DNA of 43,638 nt from Octopus sinensis (taxonomy: Eukaryota), in the NCBI RefSeq assembly GCF_006345805.1, contig NW_021832717.1, forward strand, positions 1 through 43,638, given 5' to 3'. Both the position numbers and the translations under genes were made by a program. Positions 4,566 to 40,290 of this stretch are shown piece by piece (the first letter of the stretch is position 1; every line of letters begins with the position of its first letter). Below the pieces are notes generated by a model. It was not told the DNA's origin. It saw only the letters and a list, made by a program, of their open reading frames with translations, and did not search any database.

Positions 4566-4939
4566 TGGATGGAAGCACTCCGTCGGTTACGACGACGAGG
4601 GTTCCGGTTGATCCGAATCAACGGTACAGCCTGCTCGTGAAATTAACGTGTAAGTGGCTGAGCACTCCACAGACACGTGTACCCTTAACGTAGTTCTCGG
4701 GGATATTCAGCGTGACACAGAGAGTGACAAGGCCAGCCCTTTGAAATACAGGTACTACAGAAACAGGAAGTAAGAGTGAGAGAAAGTTGTGGCGAAAGAG
4801 TACAGCAGGAATCGCCACCATCTCCTGCCGGAGCCTCGTGGACCTTTAGGTGTTTTCGCTCAATAAACACTCACAACGCCCGGTCTGGGAATCGAAACCG
4901 CGAGTCCGCTGCCCTAACCACTGGGCCATTGCGACTCCA
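4566..4939 (-). mobile_element. tRNA-derived SINE
   Basis: Minus strand starts ggagtcgcaaTGGCCCAGTGGttagggcagcggactcgcggTTTCGATTCCcagaccggg: Pol III A- and B-box-like motifs with an apparent deletion between them, then a non-tRNA body. Confidence 0.8.
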
Positions 4940-5024
4940 TGTACGAAGTAAATAAGATGACTGAGGACAGTATTTTCAAATATCCAAATAACGTAAACAA
5001 TAAGTTGTTAGAAAAGACAGGACA

Positions 5025-7042
5025 CTTCTTAGAAGAAGTAAACTATAATTCTTCTTAGAAGCAAGTAAACTATAATTCTTCTTAGAAGCAAGTAAACTAT
5101 AATTCTTCTTAGAAGCAAGTAAACTATAATTCTTCTTAGAAGCAAGTAAACTATAATTCTTCTTGGAAGCAAGTAAACTATAATTCTTCTTAGAAGCAAG
5201 TACACTATAATTCTTCTTAGAAGCAAGTAAACTATAATTCTTCTTAGAAGCAAGTAAACTATAATTCTTCTTAGAAGCAAGTACATTATAATTCTTCTTA
5301 GAAGCAAGTACACTATAATTCTTCTTAGAAGCAAGTAAACTATAATTCTTCTTATAAGCAAGTAAACTATAATTCTTCTTGGAAGCAAGTAAACTATAAT
5401 TCTTCTTAGAAGCAAGTAAACTATAATTCTTCTTGGAAGCAAGTACACTATAATTCTTCTTAGAAGCAAGTAAACTATAATTCTTCTTAGAAGCAAGTAC
5501 ACTATAATTCTTCTTAGAAGCAAGTACACTATAATTCTTCTTAGAAGCAACTAAACTATAATTCTTCTTAGAAGCAAGTAAACTATAATTCTTCTTGGAA
5601 GCAAGTAAACTATATTTCTTCTTAGAAGCAAGTAAACTATAATTCTTCTTCGAAGCAAGTAAACTATAATTCTTCTTAGAAGCAAGTAAACTATAATTCT
5701 TCTTAGAAGCAAGTAAACTATAATTCTTCTTGGAAGCAAGTAAACTATAATTCTTCTTAGAAGCAAGTACACTATAATTCTTCTTAGAAGCAAGTAAACA
5801 AAATTATTCTTAGAAGCAAGTAAACTATAATTCTTCTTGGAAGCAAGTAAACTATAATTCTTCTTGGAAGCAAGTAAACTATAATTCTTCTTAGAAGCAC
5901 GTAAACTATAATTCTTCTTAGAAGCAAGTAAACTATAATTCTTCTTGGAAGCAAGTAAACTATAATTCTTCTTAGAAGCAAGTACACTATAATTCTTCTT
6001 AGAAGCAAGTAACCTATAATTCTTCTTAGAAGCAAGTAAACTATAATTCTTCTTAGAAGCAAGTACACTATAATTCTTCTTGGAAGCAAGTAAACTATAA
6101 TTCTTCTTAGAAGCAAGTAAACTATAATTCTTCTTAGAAGCAGTAAACTATAATCTTCTTGGAAGCAAGTAACCTATAATTCTTCTTAGAAGCAAGTAAA
6201 CTATTTCTTCTTAGAAGCAAGTACACTATAATTCTTCTTGGAAGCAAGTAAACTATAATTCTTCTTAGAAGCAAGTAAACTATAATTCTTCTTGGAAGCA
6301 AGTAACCTATAATTATTCTTGGAAGCAAGTAAACTATAATTCTTCTTAGAAGCAAGTAAACTATAATTCTTCTTGGAAGCAAGTAAACTATAATTCTTCT
6401 TAGAAGCAAGTAAACTATAATTCTTCTTGGAAGCAAGTAATCTATAATTCTTCTTAGAAGCAAGTAAACTATAATTCTTCTTATAAACAAGTAAACTATA
6501 ATTCTTCTTGGAAGCAAGTACACTATAATTCTTCTTAGAAGCAAGTAAACTATAATTCTTCTTGGAAGCAAGTAAACTATAATTCTTCTTAGAAGCAAGT
6601 AAACTATAATTCTTCTTAGAAGCAAGTAAACTATAATTCTACTTAGAAGCAAGTAAACTAAATTCTTCTTGGAAGCAAGTAAACTATAATTCTTCTTAGA
6701 AGCAAGTAAACTATAATCTTCTTAGAAGCAAGTAAACTATAATTATTCTTAGAAGCAAGTAAACTATAATTCTTCTTGGAAGCAAGTAAACTATAATTCT
6801 TCTTAGAAGCAAGTAAACTATAATTCTTCTTTCAAGCAAGTAAACTATAATATTTCTTACTAGCAAGTAAACTATAATTCTTGTTGGAAGCAAGTAAACT
6901 ATAATTCTTCTTGGAAGCAAGTAAACTATAATTTTCTTAGAAGCAAGTAAACTATAATTCTTCTTGGAAGCAAGTAAACTATAATTCTTCTTAGAAGCAA
7001 GTACACTATAATTCTTCTTAGAAGCAAGTAAACTATAATTCT
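5025..7042. repeat. 27-bp minisatellite, ~75 copies
   Basis: Unit cttcttagaagcaagtaaactataatt with recurrent variants (ttggaag, gtacac); it produces the spurious LLLRRIIVY ORFs. Confidence 0.97.
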
Positions 7043-8023: not shown

Positions 8024-8133
8024 AAACAATTAATCCGGAATTGTGCTTTTAAAACAAAACAGGAACACAACGAACGTGGAATTAGCAAACAAAACATCGC
8101 TACACTTCGGACAACATAAACAAAGAATCCAAG

Positions 8134-8886
8134 ATGGCGACCCCCGTCGCCGTACAGATGAACTGGGATTCTAGTGATGTCGTTGAAGAATTTAAAAAAT
8201 TCAAACAAAAAGCTCAACTAGCTTTCAAAAGTTTCCTGAAAGGCACAACTGACGATGAAAAGGTAAGTTACATCCTTTTATGGTCAGGTAATAAAGGAAT
8301 AGACCTATACAATAGCTGGGATATGTCAGAATCAGACTGCAATGACCCAGATACACTTCTTGAAAAATTTGAGAGGCACTTAGAGCCCAGGTCAAACCAC
8401 AGAATTCAGAGATACGAATTCCAGGGCCTGAAACAAGCCCCACAAGAAACAATAGACAATTTCCTGTCAAGGCTGAAAAATGTTGCAGAGAAATGCAATT
8501 CAAAGACAGGGAGGAGAGAATTGTAGACCAATTAATATGGGGGTGTGCCCACAAAGAAGTGCAAAAATCCCCTCATAGGTAAGGACGCTCTCCAGTTGGT
8601 AGAAGCAGTAGACACTGCAAGAGCATTTGAAGCCACTACCAAAACAAATGGCCTCACTAAGCTTACAAGCAAGCCACTAGATAGCAGTGTAGATGTTGTA
8701 TCCAGGCACAGGACACAAACCCACAACCAAAGAACTTGCCGGTACTGTGGTACAGAGCATGAATTTAATGACCGAAAAAAATGTCCTGCATTCGGTACAC
8801 ACTGCAAAGGATGTGGAAAACTGGAAAAAATGTGTAGAATAACAAAATCCCAGAGATATAAGCCCCCACTGGAAAAAAATGTGTAG
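8134..8886 (+). pseudogene. gag: gag, frameshifted, with zinc-knuckle motifs
   Basis: ORFs 8134-8526 and 8545-8886; capsid-like QETIDNFLSRLKNVAEKC; CRYCGTEH..C and a degenerate CKGCGK knuckle; 48-bp tandem duplication at 8821-8916. Confidence 0.8.
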
Positions 8887-9420
8887 AATAACAAAATCCC
8901 AAAGATATAAGCCCCAAGTTTCAAAGAGGAGCAGAAATAGAAGGGATATACATGCACAACAACAGGAACAAAGCACCTCAGAGGAGGAATTCTTAGCAAT
9001 CGGCATAATAGATGTGCATGAGAAGGGAAAGGACGACCGAAGGGAAGAAGATGAGGCATACACGACAATGAAAATTCAAAAGAAGGCCGGAAGGAAAAGA
9101 ACAAACATAGACTTAAGGCTGAAGATAGACACTGGGGCCCAGAGTGATATCTTGCCTGTCGGCTTATACAAAAAGATGTTCCCAGAAAATATGACAGAAG
9201 AGGATAGGGTCAGGAAAGGAATCCTCACACCAAGTGATGTGTCCTCACTGCGTACGGAGGTACCAGAATCCCACAACTGGGGGGAAAACAACAATAAAGG
9301 GAACCAATCGAGTGTACATTTTATGTCACAAGAACAGGAGGAGGCCAGCAATTCTTGGACTCGATACCTGCAGGAGGTTAAATATTGTGTCGGTCAATAC
9401 TGAAGTGAAAGCAGCACCAA
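8879..9420 (+). pseudogene. Retropepsin-like aspartic protease remnant
   Basis: LKIDTGAQSDILP (DTG catalytic motif); AILGLDTCRRLNIV follows in another frame. Confidence 0.8.
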
Positions 9421-9639
9421 GCAGGATTGTAAGTGATATGCCTATCAAAAATCGACCACCAATCACAAACAAAGGAGATGGAAGGACTAAGCAAAGCAGA
9501 AAGGTCCACCACATTGTAAATGTGACAACCAATAAGAGCATGTTACAAAGACATAGAAAAGTACAAAACCTCACAACAAAAGAAAAAAACATAGAAAAGT
9601 ACAAAACCTCACAAAAAAAAGGAGGAAATGATATCTGGT

Positions 9640-10470
9640 GACATCCCAAGAAGGCCATGGCAAACTATTGGAGTAGATCTATTCACAGAAGGCCAAGAAT
9701 GGTATTTAATAAGGCCTGCTACTACTCCAAATTTCCATTTGTGAGAAAAGTGAAAGACCTGACAAGCAAAACAATCACTACAGTGGCCCGAGGACTCCTA
9801 GCAGAGCAAGGAATACCAGAGCAGATCATATGTGACAATGGAACCCAGTTCACGTCACAAGAATTCAAAAAGCTAGCGATGAGTATGGGTTCAATATTGC
9901 AACTTCATCTCCACACTGCCCCAAAGGTCATGGGTTTATAGAAAGACAGGTGCAGACATTGAAGAGAACACTAGTCAAATGCCGGAAGACTAGGAAGACC
10001 CACACCTGGCACTTCTGTCCCTACGAGCGACTCCACTGAGAGCTAATATGAAATCCCCAGCAGAATTGCTGAATGGCAGGAAGTATAAAACTACCCTGCC
10101 AACTAAGATTCAACCTCCTATTGACCAGAAAGAAACAAGGGCCAAGCTAGCAGCCACTCAAGAACAAGCACAGAGGCATTGCAACAAACATGCACATTTA
10201 CCTGAGATGCTTGGAGGACAACATGTGCATACTCAAGATCCCATAACTAAAACATGGATCCCAGCAAAGGTTGTCAGTAGAGCTGAAACTCCAAGATCAA
10301 ATAAGATAGAAACAGAATCTGGTAGGCAGCTGAAACAACAGGGCCCACATCCGCCCAACACCAGAGCTGCCGAGGAAAAACGTGTACAACACACCTCAGA
10401 CACCGGTGCGAAGCAGAAGATCCACCAGATGAGGAGAAAGAACATTCTGCCACCGGTTCGATACCGCTAA
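9640..10470 (+). pseudogene. Integrase core and C-terminal remnant, frameshifted
   Basis: YYSKFP, EQGIPEQIICDNGTQFTSQEFKK, SPAELLNGRK and WIPAKV...TPRS motifs typical of Ty3/Gypsy integrases. Confidence 0.85.
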
Positions 10471-12584: not shown

Positions 12585-12682
12585 TATATATATATATAAC
12601 AATTGCAGCGTGGAAGGTTGGTATATAAGCCATTTAAGAAACACACAAAAGCCGTTCGATTCACTTCAACATTTAAGTTTAA

Positions 12683-12730
12683 TTGTCAAAATATTTTCGT
12701 CGCTAAAATCCGCGACCTGTTCACTGACAA
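12683..12730 (-). ncRNA. Variant hammerhead (G3:C8 core) in the 3' pLTR
   Basis: Minus strand: ttgtca-GTGAACA-g-gtcgc(ggatttta)gcgac-GAAA-atat-TT-tgacaa. Confidence 0.7.
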
Positions 12731-13720
12731 AGTCCGTGCTGCCTAAGAAAGTAACATTTAGTTCGTCATATATATGTACGTATGTATGTGTGTATGTATG
12801 CATACATGTGTGTATGTATGTACGTATGCATGTACGCACATACGCCTGTGTATGCATGTATGTATGTATGTATGTAGGTATGTATGTATGTATGTATGTA
12901 TGTATATATGTATGTGTGTGTATATGCACGCATACATACACTCTATAAAATATAAAGCTATAAACCTGTAGCGATGGATGGACGTAGAGTGACCACTCAT
13001 CACAACGCTATCAAATTTCAACTTCCTACGGCCGAAGCTAGAAAGTGAATTTATGACACTTGCTCCCAAAACTATACCCTAAAATCTATTATCAGATTTT
13101 TATCTCTATATCACAGAACTAAAGTTTTACTATTGTGCGTATGTATGTATGTGCGTATGTATGTATGTATGTATGTATGTATGTATGTATGTATGTGTGT
13201 ATGTATGTGTGTATGTACATACGTACGCATGTGCGTATATATGTGTACGCGCTCGTATGCATGTGCCCATGTATGTGTGTGCGTACATGTACGTGCGTAT
13301 GTACGTGTGTATGCCCATACGTAGGTATGTATGTATGTTTGTATTCATGTGCTACGTATGTATGTGAGTGTCTAGGAGAATGGGCAGATGTGTCTGTGAG
13401 AGTGTGTACATGTGTATGTGTATGTGAACGTATGTCCGTGTACTGGCATGTGTCCGTTCAAGTTGTGTACATGACTGTTACTTTGCTGAAGGTTGTATAC
13501 ATATTTACATATATGTTTGTATAGACGCACACATATATATATGTGTGTGGGTGTGTGTTTGTTCCTCTCATCATCGTCTAACCGTGAATGGATACAACGC
13601 CTAGGTGCAACTGTTCGTATCAAACAACGTCTGTTCATACCGTTGTATATAACTGCACATACGCAATGCAACCTGTATGTAAGGACTTCAGGTGAAAGGG
13701 AGAGAGAGAGAGAGGGGTGG

Positions 13721-16141
13721 TTATAGAATAGTCCTTCTGAATGGGATCTGGATGTTATTCCATTCGGACTTTCGGTTGAGAGTAGGTTTGTATTCTTGTA
13801 TACAAACAGCTTCTGTGACCTGTCTCAACATTGCATCGGTGGGATGTGTTGATAGGATGTTCAACTTAAGCTCCCCTAAGGATCCCTTGCGGCAGTCTAC
13901 AGCATGTTGGTAGAAGATGGAGTTTGGCTTCCTTTCAATGTAGTTTTCCAGGTGTTCTTTGAACCTATCATTGATGCTTCTAGAGGTCTCACCTATGTAC
14001 GACTCTGGGTTAGCCGCGCAAGCTCCCTCCTGGCACTTAATCTGGTATACAGTGCCCTTGGTTTTACAATTTACATGTGGATTTGTCGAACATACTGCAC
14101 AATTACTTTGACAGGTGATTCTATCAAATGGATATGATCTGCATAATGCCGATTTGATAGTCCTACCTGTCTTTTCTACAACTTTAACTTTTAGGCCCGT
14201 AGTGCGCAGGACTTTCTTGAATGCCTTACTTAGCTCGTTCTTAGGTGTGGCGTCAACGAACATCACTCCGTGAAATCTGTTATCGTACCAAGTAACGTTT
14301 CTCATCTTTTTGTTGGTGTCCCTCTCTAACCTATTCCAGAACTTGTTGCGGTACAGGGGGCATATACCGTTTTCGTCGTTCCTTAGAATGCGTTCGAATC
14401 TAGCTTTCGCTCCTTTGTACACCCTGACTCTATCGTCTTGTGTGTATCCGGAGCGTTGCATTCGGAATATGTAGTGCTGGATGTGTTGTTGTCGTTCTTG
14501 TGGTTGGCATAGTGGTGATACATTCCTCATTACTCTAACTAAGTCTGCCACTAGGATGTTGAATTTGGCAGTATCCGACATAGCTGAGTCACTACGGATT
14601 ACTAGTGGATTAGCCATCGGTTTCTGATAGTGTGAGTGGAGTATACATGGTTTAATGGTACCATTAACCATAGCATCTTCCATCCATAGCTCAGTATCTA
14701 GGACAGGTAATCGTTTACTGGGGTGTTTAGAGGGGTAGTCTATGGTAAGTTTTATACTGCTGTGGATAGAGTCAGCTATGTGTTGTATAGATGTCATCAC
14801 CTGTTCTTCACTTGGTAGAGGGCCCATAACTGTGTCTGTATTATATTTCACAACAAGGTTAATGTCGTCGACGTAACGAGAGTACATAGCCAAGTGGATG
14901 TTACGGTTTGCTAGGCACTGTTTAAAACGCTTGTCCCACCATACCATGAAGAGGTTAGCAACGTCTCCGGCGATCCCCACTCCAATAGCACCGCCTTTCG
15001 TTTGCTTATACAGTTTGTTGTCAAATTTAAAAATATGTGTTTTTAGCGTAAATCTCAGGCTGACACCGATAGCATGTGCGATGGTGGTTCTAATATCGTG
15101 TGCACTTGAGGGTGGGTGGTCCGGCTTTGTCCATCCTTGCCAGCGCTCACAGTGAGTCTTCCTGTAAGCTGAGGTAATGGTAGGTGGTCTACCGCGTTTG
15201 TTACGGGTGGGACAAGCATATAGAAGGTTATTGCGCGACAGGTATTCATTGGTACACGTCAGGGCCAGGAAGAGCCCTAGTTCATATACATCCACATTCT
15301 TAAATATCATACCACTCTCACTAACTATTTCTATACATTTATCGACAGCAAAGTCTATATCGATGGAGGGGTATAGTGATACCACATCCATGCTACCCAC
15401 GATGTGGTTCTTGAGGTCACACGTGTTGTTGCATTCGTGGATCCTGCTAAGGAGGTCCTCAGTACTGTCACATACATCCGCAGATAGTTCTATTAACGGT
15501 CGTAGGAATTGTGAGAGAAAGTATGATATTTTGTGGTTGTTTGCATTGTTGGCACCACAAACGGGTCGGGTGGGTGGCCCAAGTATATGGTCCGTGTGGC
15601 TCTTATGATCTTTGCGAAGGCCATATAGGGGTGGGATTTCGTTGTTGGTGGTTAAAAAGTTGTTAGCTGTGCGCTTCTCCGACTGGAAAATTATACTCCA
15701 CATCCCCATGTGAGCATTGACGATCTTTTCGTTCTCGATATATTCGAGTGTTGTGGTTTCTGTCATGTCTCTGATGTGTGGTTGCATGTTCGAGATGTAA
15801 TTAGGTATGTTGTCAACAGACATCCTACCTGATTTGTCAGTCGGGAAACATACAATCTCTCTGTTTTTGATGCGTCTTTTTAATATGTTAAGGCCTTTCT
15901 TAATTTTGATGTTAAGGTCGTGGGTCTTATTTACTGATCGTTCTTGTATATGCCTTTGGGTGTAATTGGAGAAGGCTGATAGAATCTTGGCTTTAGTAAG
16001 TGTAAACTTCGCTTCCAAAGCAGCGTCAGTATAGGGTGTCATGCATACTCTTTTGTTGAAGGGTAAGTTGGTAGGGTAGACCCTTTTCATGTCGAATGAC
16101 ATGTCACGTTTATCATAAAAGCAACGGTTATAGTCAGGCAT
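13721..16141 (-). CDS. PLE reverse transcriptase / GIY-YIG endonuclease (806-aa open part; N-terminus likely extends to 16683 across two frameshifts)
   Basis: PTDKSGR, LYGLRKDHK, PTRPVCG, SMDVVSLYPSI, QTKGGAIG, RYVDD, LPVLD; Cys-rich linker CQSNCAVC; VYQIKC...YIGETSR...RFKEH...EAVCI...LNRKSE. Confidence 0.93.
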   Translation of the reverse strand: MPDYNRCFYDKRDMSFDMKRVYPTNLPFNKRVCMTPYTDAALEAKFTLTKAKILSAFSNYTQRHIQERSVNKTHDLNIKIKKGLNILKRRIKNREIVCFPTDKSGRMSVDNIPNYISNMQPHIRDMTETTTLEYIENEKIVNAHMGMWSIIFQSEKRTANNFLTTNNEIPPLYGLRKDHKSHTDHILGPPTRPVCGANNANNHKISYFLSQFLRPLIELSADVCDSTEDLLSRIHECNNTCDLKNHIVGSMDVVSLYPSIDIDFAVDKCIEIVSESGMIFKNVDVYELGLFLALTCTNEYLSRNNLLYACPTRNKRGRPPTITSAYRKTHCERWQGWTKPDHPPSSAHDIRTTIAHAIGVSLRFTLKTHIFKFDNKLYKQTKGGAIGVGIAGDVANLFMVWWDKRFKQCLANRNIHLAMYSRYVDDINLVVKYNTDTVMGPLPSEEQVMTSIQHIADSIHSSIKLTIDYPSKHPSKRLPVLDTELWMEDAMVNGTIKPCILHSHYQKPMANPLVIRSDSAMSDTAKFNILVADLVRVMRNVSPLCQPQERQQHIQHYIFRMQRSGYTQDDRVRVYKGAKARFERILRNDENGICPLYRNKFWNRLERDTNKKMRNVTWYDNRFHGVMFVDATPKNELSKAFKKVLRTTGLKVKVVEKTGRTIKSALCRSYPFDRITCQSNCAVCSTNPHVNCKTKGTVYQIKCQEGACAANPESYIGETSRSINDRFKEHLENYIERKPNSIFYQHAVDCRKGSLGELKLNILSTHPTDAMLRQVTEAVCIQEYKPTLNRKSEWNNIQIPFRRTIL

Positions 16142-16683
16142 GTATTATCGATTCAGTTTTGACAAACTGTTTAGTTGTTTTTTGGTTGTATGGTAGTTGT
16201 ATCGTCCATGTCAGTTTCTCTTCAAAGTGTTGTACGCACCTGTTCCATACAGAGTTACTTTCACGACGGAGTAGTTCTTTCAACTGTTTGAATTCTTGAT
16301 TAGTAAGTAAGTCCTTCACTTTAGCGAGGGCATCTCGCTTTTCCTTGTCTTTAGTGGCAAGGACTTTAGTATAGCTCGGACTTCAGGTTCGTCATTAAAA
16401 TGCGTTTTAGTCTCGACGCTTGTCCCTTCTTCAGGTTCAGTGCTTCGACTGTATTGTAAATCCTTTTCGGGTAAACCTTCAGTGAGATGCAGTGTCTAAT
16501 GAAATGAAGCTGTTGCTTAGCTGTTATTCTTCTCAAGCAACAAGTAACGGCTGTCCTCAGAGTTTTGGTAGCCTGGCTCAAGCTTTCGGAATTACGGAGA
16601 TGTACTCGCATAGCAAGTAATTTGATCTGAGATCGTGTGCTGAAACGAAAACAATTGCAGCGTGGAAGGTGTTTATAAGCCAT
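16134..16683 (-). pseudogene. Frameshifted N-terminal part of the PLE ORF
   Basis: ATG at 16683 within pLTR sequence; frame 16683-16366 shifts by 1 nt near 16370 into TKVLATKDKEKRDALAKVKDLL..., which overlaps the 806-aa ORF start. Confidence 0.6.
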
Positions 16684-17163
16684 TTAAGAAACACACAAAA
16701 GCCGTTCGATTCACTTCAACATTTAAGTAAAACTTTAGTTCTGTGATATAGAGATAAAAATCTGATAATAGATTTTAGGGTATAGTTTTGGGAGCAAGTG
16801 TCATAAATTCACTTTCTAGCTTCGGTCGTAGGAAGTTGAAATTTGATAGCGTTGTGATGAGTGGTCACTCTACGTCCATCCATCGCTACAGGTTTATAGC
16901 TTTATATTTTATAGAGTGTATGTGCGTGCATATACACACACATACATATATGTATGTATGTATGTATGTAAATACATACATACATACATACATACATACA
17001 TACATACATACATACATACATACATACATACATACATGCATACACAGGCGTATGTGCGTACATGCATACGTACATACATACACACATGTATGCATACATA
17101 CACACATACATACGTACATATATATGACAAACTAAATGTTACTTTCTTAGATGCAGCACGGAC

Positions 17164-17213
17164 TTTGTCAGTGAACAGGTCGCGGATTTTAGCGACGAAA
17201 ATATTTTGACAAA
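17164..17213 (+). ncRNA. Variant hammerhead (G3:C8 core) in the inverted pLTR
   Basis: tttgtca-GTGAACA-g-gtcgc(ggatttta)gcgac-GAAA-atat-TT-tgacaaa: 7-bp stem I, 5-bp stem II, palindromic aatatt. Confidence 0.72.
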
Positions 17214-17564
17214 TTAAACTTAAATGTTGAAGTGAATCGAACGGCTTTTGTGTGTTTCTTAACACCTTCCACGCTGCAATTGTTTTCGTTTCAGCACACG
17301 ATCTCAGATCAAATTACTTGCTATGCGAGTACATCTCCGTAATATATATATATATATATATGTATGTATATATATATATATGCATATATGTATGCATATA
17401 TATATATATATATGCCACATATATATATGTAAGTATATATGTACATATAATAAGTATGTATACAAACACACGCATATATGTGCGCATATACATGTGTGTA
17501 TGTTGATGTATATAAAGGTAGAAAGACGTACACATATACATCCATATATATGTTTGTGTCTTTG

Positions 17565-18798: not shown

Positions 18799-19244
18799 AG
18801 TCTTCCTCAAATCACTCTGTCGCTATTTACTCTCTTCCAAGAACATTTTCACTCACTCTTATCTCTTAGCTTGCCATACATTTTACTCATGTATCTATCA
18901 GCGTGATAGACAGAAACAAATATTACATCGCCATCGCATTCTATTGTCTACCTGTCAACACACACACAGTGAATTAGTTTCAATTTATTCGTTGCACACT
19001 GTGTGTGTGCGTTTGCGTGTGCTGTAAACCAGACTAAGAAAAGCATTTGACATACACACCAGAATGTGAGTTTTCTGTAAATTTTGCTTAATTGGAGTTT
19101 AAATTTTAAAAACTGGACCTGGCATGACCCGATGCATTCTACTCTTAAAAATGCTAGGTAAATTGTAATTGAAGAAATCCTATATTGTAGATTTCTATAA
19201 GTGACAAAGGGAGGCAGATAAAATCTGCCTTTTATAATAAGAGA
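18799..19244 (-). mobile_element. Dispersed repeat, probable Helitron 5' segment (family B), copy 1
   Basis: Highly similar to 21037-21474; minus strand starts A|TCTCTTATTATAAAAGGCAG with hairpin ggcagat/atctgcc; no 3' CTAG end seen. Confidence 0.6.
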
Positions 19245-19562
19245 TACTCGCTAATTGTAAATATTGACATTTGCAAATATCTCATCTGATTTCCTTCAAA
19301 CCGGACACGTTTCCCTCAGATTTATATAGACGGAATTTACGAGACATCAAACCTCATGTCATTCGAAGTATGAAGTGAGAATTCAGGAAAAAAAAAAGTT
19401 CGAGGTTAAAAAATTTTTTTTTTAATGAATATGAATTTGTTGTATAGTGCTCAGGTGCACTAAAACTAAAAAAAAAAAAGGACACGCGATAAAAGACCAC
19501 AGGAAATTTCCAATTAAATCGCCGATTTAACGAACCTGTTTTTGTTTCATTTTATTTTAAGA

Positions 19563-19958
19563 CTAGCAGTATTGCCCGGCGTTGCTCGGGTTTGTAAGGG
19601 AAATAATTATATAAGCATTTTTAGAGATGTAAAGTATAATAGCCATCTCAATATGGCTAACCACAAAGGGGGAGGGGTGTTACTGTAGCTTTTTACGTTC
19701 TGAGATTTAATAATAAATTTTAGAGAGTTACTTCCCTTATATATGTCAAAAATGGATTAAAAATGGGAAAAATTGATGGTAAATTTTTTTTTTAAATCGT
19801 AGACTCATCGTAGATGCGCGCTAATACTCAGACGGGCTCGATATGAATTACGACTATAAGATACTCGGTTTTGGTTAAACTGCACCGCAAAATGTGGGAG
19901 TAGTTAGGAATCTAAATCGTAGGAGTCAGACACACAACCTCACTTTTATATATAAAGA
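19563..19958 (-). mobile_element. Non-autonomous Helitron, family A
   Basis: Same TC/CTAG termini, AT target and hairpin (cccggcgttgctcggg). Confidence 0.85.
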
Positions 19959-20052
19959 TTTCCTCTATTTACATAATATTGAGGTCTCTTTCTTTCTTTT
20001 GTTATCTTACTGTTTTTACCAATATACATATATATATATAAATATATATATA

Positions 20053-20370
20053 GTTACAGAGATGTACTTGCATAGCAAGTGACTTGATCTGAGATCGTGT
20101 GCTGGAACGAAAACAGTTGCAGCGTTGAAGGTGTTTATAAGCCATTTAAGAAACACACAAAACCGTTAGATTCACTTCAACATTTAAATTTAATTTGCCA
20201 AAATATTTCGTCGCTTTGAGACCGCGACCTGTTAGCACGATATTTTTGTCAGTGAACAGGTCGCGGTCTCAAAGCGAGGAAAATTTGGCAAATTAAATTT
20301 AAATGTTGAAGTGAATCTAACGGTTTTGTTGTGTTTCTTAAATGGCTTACAAACACCTTCCACGCTGCAA
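20053..20370. mobile_element. Foldback made of two inverted pLTR ends of the same PLE family
   Basis: Arms 20117-20233 and 20255-20370 are reverse complements, homologous to 16590-16728 and 17156-17280; (TA)n flanks. Confidence 0.88.
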
Positions 20371-20454
20371 TATATATATACACACATATATATATATGTA
20401 TTTATGTATGTATGTGTGTATAGTGTATGCATGTATGTGTGTGGTGTGGTGTGT

Positions 20455-20680
20455 GTCTGCGTGTCTGTGCTTGTGATTGTCCTCCACCACTGCTTGACAA
20501 CGAATGTTGGTTTGTTTACATCCCTGTCACCTAGTGGTTTGACAAAGGAAACAGATAGAATAAGTACAATGCTTACAAAAATAAAACTGGAGTTGATTCA
20601 TTAAACTACAATTCTTCAAGGCATTGCCCCAGCATGGCCACAGACCAATGGCTGGAAAAAGCAGAAGAATAAAAGAATAC
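20455..20680 (+). mobile_element. SINE 3' half (family of 23635-24030)
   Basis: gcttgacaac..tggtttgtttaca..gatagaataagtac..ccagcatggccacag..aagaataaaagaa. Confidence 0.7.
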
Positions 20681-20725
20681 ATTCTCTGCTTTGGTCTTAT
20701 GTTCAAGGCATGAGAAGGCCTAACA

Positions 20726-21000
20726 GACCTGGTAGAAACAGCAGCCAAATCTCCCTCAAATCACACCTTACTGTCTTATGTATGTATATATATATGAGCC
20801 AATGAGGGGGACCTCTACATGGTAGCTAGACCTGGTAGAAATAGCAGCCAAATTTCCCCCAAATCACACCTTACTGTCTTATCTATGTATATATGTATGT
20901 ATGAGCCTATGAGGGAGACCCCTACATGGCAGCTAGACATGGTAGAAATAGCAGCCAAATCTCCCTCAAATCACACCTTACTGTCTTATGTATGTATATA
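20726..21000. repeat. ~105-bp tandem repeat, ~2.6 copies
   Basis: agac(c/a)tggtagaaa(c/t)agcagccaaat..tcacaccttactgtctta at 20726, 20828 and 20935. Confidence 0.85.
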
Positions 21001-21036
21001 TATATATATACAAGCCACTACGGTTATTTAATGTAA

Positions 21037-21471
21037 AGTCTTCCTCAAATCAATCTCTCGCTATTTACTCTCTTCCAAGAACATTTTCACTCACTCTTAT
21101 CTCTTAGCTTCCCATACATTTTACTCATGTATCATCAGCATCATAGACAGAAACAAATATTACATCGCCATCGCATTCTATTGTCTACCTGTCAAACACA
21201 GTGAATTAGTTTCAGTTTATTCGTTGCACACTGTGTGTGTGCGTTTGCGTGTGCTGTAACCCAAACTAAGAAAAGCATTTGACATATACACCACAATGTG
21301 AGTTTTCTCTAAATTTTGCTTAATTGGGGTTGAAATTTTAAAAACCGGACCTGGCAAAACCCGATGCATTCTACTCTTAAAAATGCTAGGTAAATTGTAA
21401 TTGAAGAAATCCTATATTGTAGATTTCTATAAGTGACAAAGGGAGGCAGATAAAATCTGCCTTTTATAATA

Positions 21472-21474
<3 letters not shown>
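21037..21474 (-). mobile_element. Dispersed repeat, probable Helitron 5' segment (family B), copy 2
   Basis: Direct repeat of 18799-19244. Confidence 0.6.
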
Positions 21475-21546
<72 letters not shown>

Positions 21547-38900: not shown

Positions 38901-39168
38901 TTCACGCATGCATATATTAAGCGAAACACAAACAGACACAAGTATAAAGAGACAAAGATGGTTGCGTTTACATTTATATATAAATACAGATTCATGTCTC
39001 AACTCACCTTTCTTTATAAACACGCACACACACATACAATCACACTTATTTAAACACTGAATACATTGACCGATGAACCAGTAAGGAAGGAGAAGATAGA
39101 CTAAATAGAGAAAGAGAGCAGTAGACAAATGCTCATCTCAACACACATTTGACATAAACAGCGAAGCG

Positions 39169-40071
39169 AGCTACCTTCCTACATATAGATGCTCGGGAGA
39201 ACCGTCTCGCCACACGTCCGCGACCACCTACATCACGTTTAACAACCAAAAGTCAAGATTCCTTTCCAAGCTACCTTCCTACATATAGATGCTCGGGAGA
39301 ACCGTCTCGCCACACTCGTCCGCGACCACCTACATCACATTTAACACAACACCAAAAGTCAAGCTTCCTTTCCAAGCTACCTTCCTACATATAGATGCTC
39401 GGGAGAACCGTCTCGCCACACGTCGCGACCACCTACATCACGTTTAACAACCAAAGTCCAGCTTCCTTTCCAAGCTACCTTCCTACATATAGATGCTCGG
39501 GAGAACCGTCTCGCCACACGTCCGCGACACCTACATCACATTTAACAACCAAAAGTCAAGCTTCCTTTCCAGCTACCTTCCTACATATAGATGCTCGGGA
39601 GAACCGTCTCGCCACACGTCCGCGACCACCTACATCACGTTTAACAACCAAAAGTCAAGCTTCCTTTCCAAGCTACCTTCCTACATATAGATGCTCGGGA
39701 GAACCGTCTCGCCACACGTCCGCGACCACCTACATCACGTTTAACAACCAAAAGTCAAGCTTCCTTTGCAAGCTACCTTCCTACATATAGATGCTCGGGA
39801 GAACCGTCTCGCCACACGTCCGCGACCACCTACATCACGTTTAACAACCAAAAGTCAAGCTTCCTTTCCAAGCTACCTTCCTACATATAGATGCTCGGGA
39901 GAACCGTCTCGCCACACGTCCGCGACCACCTACATCACATTTAACAACCAAAAGTCAAGCTTCCTTTCCAAGCTACCTTCCTACATATAGATGCTCGGGA
40001 GAACCGTCTCGCCACACGTCCGCGACCACCTACATCACATTTAACAACCAAAAGTCAAGCTTCCTTTCCAA
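39169..40071. repeat. 100-bp tandem satellite, 9 copies
   Basis: Unit agctaccttcctacatatagatgctcgggagaaccgtctcgccacacgtccgcgaccacctacatcac(g/a)tttaacaaccaaaagtcaagcttcctttcca; exact 100-bp period from 39601 to 40001. Confidence 0.97.
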
Positions 40072-40290
40072 TCGTCATTGTTAATAGGTCTCGGAATATA
40101 AATATAAGCTGGTATATATACTGCTATCGCATTCACAGAATTAACATCACGTGGCCTGGGCTGACCAATGGAGGCCTAAGATCTAGAAACCATCATGAGT
40201 TTGTCTCAAATCCGCCACTATTCTAATGTCTAATAAGACGAGCCTGTCCTCGCACCCACAAAACTTTAAGTCATTTGATGTTGAGTAGGC

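What the first reader, a model, noticed from the sequence alone, without database searches (positions are those of the whole stretch)
17164..17213. Penelope pLTR carries a hammerhead with a G3:C8 core swap and an extra nucleotide after A9
Seen: stem I tttgtca/tgacaaa, core GUGAACA instead of CUGANGA, one extra G, stem II gtcgc/gcgac, GAAA and palindromic stem III aatatt; the same motif lies at 12683-12730 (-). The diverged copy at ~20245-20290 keeps GTGAACAG, changes loop II (ggatttta to ggtctcaaa) and turns a stem I U:A into U:G, which suggests selection on structure. Known: C3:G8 pairs in the active hammerhead fold and the C3G/G8C double swap partly rescues activity; an extra nucleotide between A9 and G10.1 occurs in the CChMVd viroid HHR; PLEs carry minimal HHRs with palindromic stem III thought to act as dimers. 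Inference: a natural variant ribozyme that CUGANGA descriptors would miss. I cannot confirm it is undescribed.
Basis: partly seen in the sequence, partly recalled or inferred. Interest (0 to 1): 0.85.

Follow-up and report, generated by a model that had tools for sequence, protein, structure and literature searches.

The report
Swapped-core hammerhead in octopus Penelope element
Thousands of copies of a Penelope-type jumping gene, likely from an octopus, carry a small hammerhead RNA motif whose core C-G pair is flipped to G-C while related families keep C-G or U-A, so it is likely a natural version of a known laboratory rescue mutant and is predicted, but not yet tested, to cut itself slowly.

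Summary
The motif is real: a type I hammerhead fold at 17164-17213 (z -3.4) in the pseudo-LTR of a C-terminal GIY-YIG Penelope-like element. A pattern for it matches 5,238 genome places (control 0). The extra base after A9 is ordinary; it is a published hallmark of Penelope hammerheads. The G3:C8 swap is the unusual part, and the comparisons support it. An older sister family keeps G3:C8 (12 of 17 copies found without fixing the core; none has C3) while its loop II, N7 and stem III palindrome differ. Related families carry C3:G8, U3·G8 or U3:A8 in the same architecture. The swap looks like a single evolutionary event. No copy begins at the predicted cut site (0 of 93), so reverse-transcribed templates were mostly uncut; cleavage is untested. 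I found no natural G3:C8 hammerhead in ten literature searches, but the largest variant survey (Lünse 2017) could not be read. This scan earlier noted an unresolved G3:C8-like motif in another genome. Verdict: new variant of a known kind.

The parts
17164..17213 (+). Type I minimal hammerhead motif with G3:C8 core, in the inverted pLTR piece (antisense to the ORF)
17171..17178 (+). Core G3 U4 G5 A6 A7 C8 A9 plus the extra G between 9 and 10.1
   Evidence: extra base known from PMC4209133
17200..17206 (+). A15.1-U16.1 six-base palindrome (predicted dimer stem III) and U17; predicted cut after 17206
   Evidence: cut site inferred from hammerhead numbering
16726..17343 (+). Inverted, 5'-truncated pLTR copy next to the element's 5' end
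   Evidence: 16726-17284 inverted to 13131-12598; 17218-17343 inverted to 16728-16591
16591..16726 (-). Direct 5' pLTR remnant: starts downstream of the hammerhead and holds the ORF start ATG at 16683
16147..16683 (-). N-terminal part of the ORF; one 1-nt gap and about 245 nt missing relative to near-intact copy L077, so this copy is broken
13721..16144 (-). 807-aa open frame: PLE reverse transcriptase, CX3CxxC linker and C-terminal GIY-YIG endonuclease
   Evidence: GIY-YIG E 1.7e-5 on the C-terminal 159 aa
12598..13720 (-). 3' untranslated part and 3' pLTR
12680..12732 (-). Sense-strand G3:C8 hammerhead in the 3' pLTR, about 50 nt upstream of the repeated ATG
20245..20292 (+). Damaged hammerhead copy (other loop II subfamily; C11.1 changed, stem III shortened)
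20192..20240 (-). Inverted partner copy truncated inside the core; with the previous part it forms a fold-back insert of about 20022-20370

Best explanation
This is the pLTR hammerhead motif of an abundant Penelope-like retrotransposon family in which the core 3:8 pair is G:C instead of C:G, likely kept by selection and predicted to self-cleave only slowly, as a dimer or with help from the element's protein. Shown: the fold, the copy number, the pLTR position, G3:C8 in families A and D, and C:G, U·G or U:A at the same positions in related families. Inferred: one double change on the stem lineage of A and D; dimer formation through the palindromic stem III; weak activity, because G3 can also pair with U17 and lengthen stem I into an inactive form. 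Also inferred: a weak or protein-gated ribozyme suits the element, because the cut site lies just upstream of the reverse-transcription start sites and efficient early cleavage would truncate the template.
For: Fold and counts. Family A keeps G3 in 61 of 62 and C8 in 58 of 63 informative copies, from 93 copies chosen by a downstream anchor. Its seven sites with >=30% minor allele all lie in flanks or loop II, none in the 42 structural positions (my hand Fisher p about 0.02). Old sister family D differs at 25 of 91 majority flank columns. It keeps G3:C8 in 12 of 17 copies found with the core left open, with G3 in 15 and no C3, while N7, loop II and the palindrome (4 nt instead of 6, still palindromic) differ. 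Relatives: family B C3:G8 in 4 of 4; family F U3:A8 in 3 of 3; family C U·G 8, C:G 5, U:A 1 of 14; metagenome relatives L128 U3:A8 and L130 C3:G8. The 3:8 columns pair in 22 of 22 rows and 44 of 47 rows. The C3G/G8C double mutant partly rescues cleavage, also in a PLE hammerhead, and that hammerhead needs protein (PMC11167929; PMC8495972). Predicted G3·U17 pairing is 0.67, against 0.98 with C17 and 0 with C3.
Against: No cleavage data. 0 of 93 copies begin at 17199-17210; 45 of 93 begin at 17143-17157, upstream of the motif. G3:C8 appears to have arisen once, so it is one compensatory event; aligned rows are related, and rows were hand-picked, several D rows by a pattern that demanded G3 and C8. 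Rare mutations hit the core about as often as the flanks, as expected of dead copies, so copy-level conservation says nothing. 173 copies are G3·G8, and C8-to-G is as common as C8-to-T (43 vs 42 of the first 100 of 252 rows), which I cannot explain. Families B and L128 carry C at position 9, so core constraint in this clade may be loose. The RT tree is the quick version only, and families C and D were placed by pLTR similarity, not by RT.
Confidence: 0.68

Rival explanations
1. The fold is conserved but no longer cuts. It serves as a structural signal near the RNA 5' end or ORF start (protein binding, reverse-transcription or translation control), and the 3:8 pair is kept for shape only.
For: No copy starts at the cut site (0 of 93). 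In the PAc element, hammerhead mutants do not affect insertion in vitro and no RNA-seq reads ended at the site (PMC11167929). The open-core monomer fold has predicted probability 0.027. Relatives tolerate C9 and U3·G8.
Against: U4, G5, A6, G12-A14, A15.1 and U16.1, which matter for catalysis, are kept across families A, B, D and F. A tertiary 3:8 pair that covaries is a mark of the active conformation (PMC3088659). The double swap is active in vitro.
Confidence: 0.22
2. G3 and C8 are two unselected changes fixed by drift in one master element and then amplified; their complementarity is coincidence.
For: Only one origin is seen. G3·G8 copies are common (173), and a basal family-A element, L084, has G3·G8.
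Against: That the only changes among about 11 conserved core positions fall on the two paired ones and stay complementary has a rough prior near 1 in 165 (my estimate). The pair persisted through the A-D split while N7, loop II and stem III changed. An independent U:A state exists in family F.
Confidence: 0.08
3. A chance hammerhead look-alike inside a repeat.
For: No Rfam hammerhead hit.
Against: Homologous position and architecture in families with canonical cores. A model built without families D and F finds both.
Confidence: 0.02

Closest known systems
Minimal type I hammerheads of metazoan Penelope-like element pLTRs (Cervera & De la Pena 2014, PMC4209133; parts 1-2 of 4 of the text and passages of supplement file 2 seen)
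   Same: pLTR location, extra nucleotide between 9 and 10.1, G10.1:C11.1, small palindromic stem III, thousands of solo copies, inverted pairs close together; natural U3:A8 variant reported in Schistosoma PLEs.
   Different: G3:C8 is not in the text parts read or among the supplement passages searched; activity is untested here.
Engineered C3G/G8C double mutant (PAc hammerhead, PMC11167929, passages and section 3 part 1 seen; review PMC8495972, passages; PMC3884650, passages)
   Same: Same core pair; partly restores cleavage; G3:C8 activity depends on N17 context.
   Different: Those are laboratory mutants; here the pair is the wild type of two natural families.
Natural U3:A8 core covariation (Perreault 2011, PMC3088659, passages seen)
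   Same: Natural compensatory change at the same tertiary pair.
   Different: U3:A8 keeps pyrimidine-3/purine-8 and needs two transitions; G3:C8 inverts it and needs two transversions.
C-terminal EN+ PLE clades with a CX2-5CxxC linker, Nematis or Neptune (Craig 2021, PMC8557442; passages, section 11 and supplement passages seen)
   Same: RT plus C-terminal GIY-YIG, CX3CxxC linker, pLTRs, inverted 5'-truncated copy, (TA)n neighbourhood.
   Different: Clade not placed by tree against named references; DKS replaces DKG (DKG); not Naiad (N-terminal EN) and lacks the Hydra CxCX5C linker.

Membership tests
Type I hammerhead ribozyme | Stems I and II around the core in type I order | tested here: met
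   (stem pair probabilities 0.87-1.0 except the outermost, 0.4)
Type I hammerhead ribozyme | Literal CUGANGA core | tested here: not met
   core is GUGAACA; only 1 genome match with C3/G8 and this stem II, from family C
Type I hammerhead ribozyme | Watson-Crick pair between positions 3 and 8 | tested here: met
   G:C in A and D; covaries with C:G and U:A in relatives
Type I hammerhead ribozyme | U4 G5 A6 A9, G12 A13 A14, A15.1:U16.1 and H17 | tested here: met
Type I hammerhead ribozyme | Site-specific self-cleavage after H17 | not testable with these tools
   only assembled contigs were available
Type I hammerhead ribozyme | Match to an Rfam hammerhead model | tested here: not met
   no hammerhead family at E<=10 in 17130-17260
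PLE minimal hammerhead | Lies in the pLTR near the ORF start | tested here: met
PLE minimal hammerhead | Extra base between 9 and 10.1, G10.1:C11.1, palindromic stem III | tested here: met
PLE minimal hammerhead | Activity as a dimer | not testable with these tools
   the palindrome can duplex in silico, -3.8 kcal/mol over 10 nt; not a test of activity
EN+ Penelope-like element | RT with C-terminal GIY-YIG endonuclease | tested here: met
   (GIY-YIG above cut-off on the C-terminal piece; RT shown through homologs and the YVDD motif, no Pfam RT hit on the window protein itself)
EN+ Penelope-like element | pLTRs with adjacent inverted 5'-truncated copy | tested here: met
Nematis or Neptune clade | Placement by RT phylogeny with named references | not tested
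   only the linker motif was compared by eye

The most novel reading that the evidence does not exclude
This is the first natural G3:C8 hammerhead family, and the swap is a tuning device. With U17 it creates a competing G3·U17 pair that keeps the ribozyme off until dimerisation or the element's protein switches it on. One octopus PLE clade samples G:C, C:G, U:A and U·G at the 3:8 pair, and core-swapped motifs like this could hide in PLE groups now described as lacking hammerheads because CUGANGA descriptors were used.
Probability: 0.25. Interest if true: 0.72.

Novelty: new variant of a known kind. Interest (0 to 1): 0.52.

Why it matters
The C3:G8 pair is a key feature of the active hammerhead structure. 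Its G:C inversion was, in the papers I could read, known only as an engineered rescue mutant. Finding it as the wild type of a family with more than 5,000 copies, beside sister families with C:G and U:A, gives natural covariation evidence that PLE hammerheads are held in the catalytic conformation. That bears on the open question of whether they do anything for the element. It supplies a ready set of natural constructs with near-identical stems for kinetic comparison. It also shows that CUGANGA descriptors and Rfam undercount PLE ribozymes.

Tried and rejected
Rfam scan of the whole window: the 150 listed of 376 matches were microsatellite noise; the targeted scan found no hammerhead. Pfam gave nothing on the whole ORF. 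A C3:G8 subfamily inside family A was sought and not found. A second G3:C8 family with a different stem II was sought; the 100 listed of 596 rows were mostly CpG-decayed family A, but a few led to family D. Expression and cleavage: no RNA holder was listed. Guessed-RNA runs are contigs only, showed no end pile-ups and no intron joint, and cannot show cleavage. One search listed no variant at >=1% in 17164-17180 in four runs of four coded organisms, but it under-reports variants (CpG decay about 2% there, against about 10%), so I do not count it as evidence of conservation. The higher divergence of G3·G8 copies (2.0 vs 0.46 mismatches in 18 nt) is expected of any mutant class and was not used. 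Of 20 metagenome loci, 4 showed a plausible hammerhead (L128, L130, L142, L146); L142 and L146 have long, unreliable tree branches. The careful RT tree did not finish. Naiad and Hydra assignments were rejected on domain order and linker motif. Papers not held: Lünse 2017, two papers asked for by recalled DOI (Przybilski & Hammann 2007; Arkhipova 2017) and one recalled PMC id. PMC6155905, PMC7229834, PMC10085705 and PMC6765202 (passages only) had no G3:C8 mention in the terms searched; of bioRxiv 10.64898/2026.07.22.740005 I read part 1 of 5.

Full report
Observation. The window holds at 17164-17213(+) a 7-bp stem I, the core GUGAACA, one extra G, a 5-bp stem II with an 8-nt loop, GAA, a six-base palindrome from A15.1 to U16.1, and U17 at 17206. 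The minimum-energy fold forms stems I and II (-14.7 kcal/mol, z -3.40; 1 of 200 shuffles as good). The same motif lies at 12683-12730(-). A covariance model finds four copies in the window and no others (the first copy is in its training set). The copy at 20192-20240(-) is cut inside the core. No Rfam hammerhead model hits the motif at E<=10.

Context. An 807-aa frame at 13721-16144(-) has 135 homologs at E<=1e-20, the best named one from Octopus vulgaris at 55%. [quoted passage not shown] The ORF starts at 16683 inside the pLTR; this copy has a 1-nt gap and lacks about 245 nt relative to a near-intact copy. The flagged motif lies in the inverted pLTR piece 16726-17343, the usual arrangement of these elements. 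The 12683 copy is the sense one in the 3' pLTR. The family is young and large: RT copies at 95-100% identity exist, the hammerhead pattern matches 5,238 places with control 0, and a 25-base anchor at the ATG matches 5,395.

The extra base is ordinary. Cervera and De la Pena list a nucleotide between 9 and 10.1, G10.1:C11.1 and a palindromic stem III as recurrent features of metazoan PLE hammerheads, and report natural U3:A8 (PMC4209133).

The swap within family A. Among 93 distinct copies chosen by the downstream anchor (from the first 100 listed places of 5,395, of which 97 were fetched), G3 is present in 61 of 62 and C8 in 58 of 63 informative copies. Rare changes hit the core about as often as the flanks, as expected for dead copies. 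The seven sites with a minor allele of 30% or more, which mark amplifying subfamilies, lie in flanks (5) and loop II (2), and none in the 42 structural positions (hand-computed one-sided Fisher p about 0.02). Genome-wide, 113 matches lack G3 and 252 keep G3 but lack C8; no compensated subfamily appears among the listed rows. One anomaly counts against a simple picture. 173 matches are G3·G8, and C8-to-G is as frequent as C8-to-T (43 and 42 of the first 100 rows), whereas G3-to-C is about 19 of 100 rows. I cannot say whether this is a mutation hotspot or a lineage.

The swap between families. Family D is an old sister of A: 25 of 91 majority flank columns differ, and mean A-D identity is 59%. 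Found with the core left open, it has G3 in 15 of 17, C8 in 13 of 17, both in 12 of 17, and never C3. Its N7 is C, its loop II differs, and its stem III palindrome is four bases instead of six. Family B (about 62% RT identity) has C3:G8 with C at 9 in 4 of 4 copies and an A:U for G:C change in stem II. Family F has U3:A8 in 3 of 3. Family C, with nearly the same stems I and II as A, has U·G in 8, C:G in 5 and U:A in 1 of 14 aligned copies (14 of 20 fetched loci were aligned). Metagenome relatives show U3:A8 (L128) and C3:G8 (L130). In a quick RT tree, A is sister to B+F (SH-aLRT 100), with L128 and L130 outside. C and D were placed by pLTR and N-terminal similarity only. The 3:8 columns pair in 22 of 22 and 44 of 47 rows, above all 500 shuffles for the whole structure. 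The rows are related and hand-picked, so this is support, not a probability. The economical reading is a pyrimidine-3/purine-8 ancestor and one double change to G3:C8 before A and D split.

Mechanism. The C3G/G8C double mutant partly restores cleavage, also in the PAc element, whose hammerhead cleaves only with protein and is not needed for insertion in vitro (PMC11167929; PMC8495972). In silico, G3 pairs with U17 with probability 0.67 and extends stem I; with C17 this rises to 0.98, and with C3 it is 0. U17 dominates families A, B, C and D, so the swap arose in a permissive background; this is inference, in line with the N17 dependence mentioned in PMC3884650. Among the 93 copies, 45 begin at 17143-17157, just upstream of the motif, and none at 17199-17210. 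Copied RNAs were therefore mostly uncut, and the cluster may mark the RNA 5' end. I conclude that it is most likely a slow ribozyme, dimer- or protein-dependent. The main rival is a conserved but non-cutting fold.

Novelty. Ten full-text searches and passages of eleven papers showed natural U3:A8 and a U3·G8 row, but no natural G3:C8. Lünse 2017, the large survey of PLE-linked variants (content recalled), could not be read. Supplement file 1 of PMC4209133 was not searchable, and the hammerhead file of PMC8557442 was not seen, so absence from print is not established.

Verdict. Observation confirmed; interpretation partly supported; new variant of a known kind; interest 0.52.

Noticed in passing
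genome-wide, family A; L084:6502-6555: C8-to-G changes are unusually common: 173 G3·G8 matches, spread over all loop II subtypes, and a basal family-A element has G3·G8. Hotspot, RT error or old lineage is unresolved.
   Followed up: partly
L086:8406-8455, L128:2489-2538: Family B and a distant metagenome relative have C instead of A at core position 9, another unusual hammerhead core state in this clade.
   Followed up: no
window 17128-17152 and 12740-12770: Just upstream of the hammerhead, most copies show a branch-point-like motif, a pyrimidine tract and AG, resembling a 3' splice site as in D. virilis Penelope; 45 of 93 copies start within 17143-17157, several preceded by GAG. No spliced joint was seen in contigs.
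   Followed up: partly
window 18799-21478: A composite repeat bounded by about 450-nt direct repeats (95%) carries the fold-back PLE insert at 20022-20370 as a passenger; the same junction occurs in 12 distinct contexts among fetched loci.
   Followed up: partly
window 17283 and 17343: Copies end at two 3' points about 60 nt apart, probably the two reverse-transcription start sites that define the PLE tail; longer than the 30-40 nt usually cited.
   Followed up: partly
window 4884-7040: Long 27-nt tandem satellite, 67 offsets listed.
   Followed up: no
window 39064-40171: Tandem array of about 100-nt units.
   Followed up: no
window 8086-10470: Broken frames resembling gag/pol pieces of an LTR retroelement (resemblance recalled, not tested); observed only.
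   Followed up: no
L085 near 6885 and 7618: A canonical CUGAUGA hammerhead without the extra base, present as an inverted pair, from an unrelated repeat.
   Followed up: no
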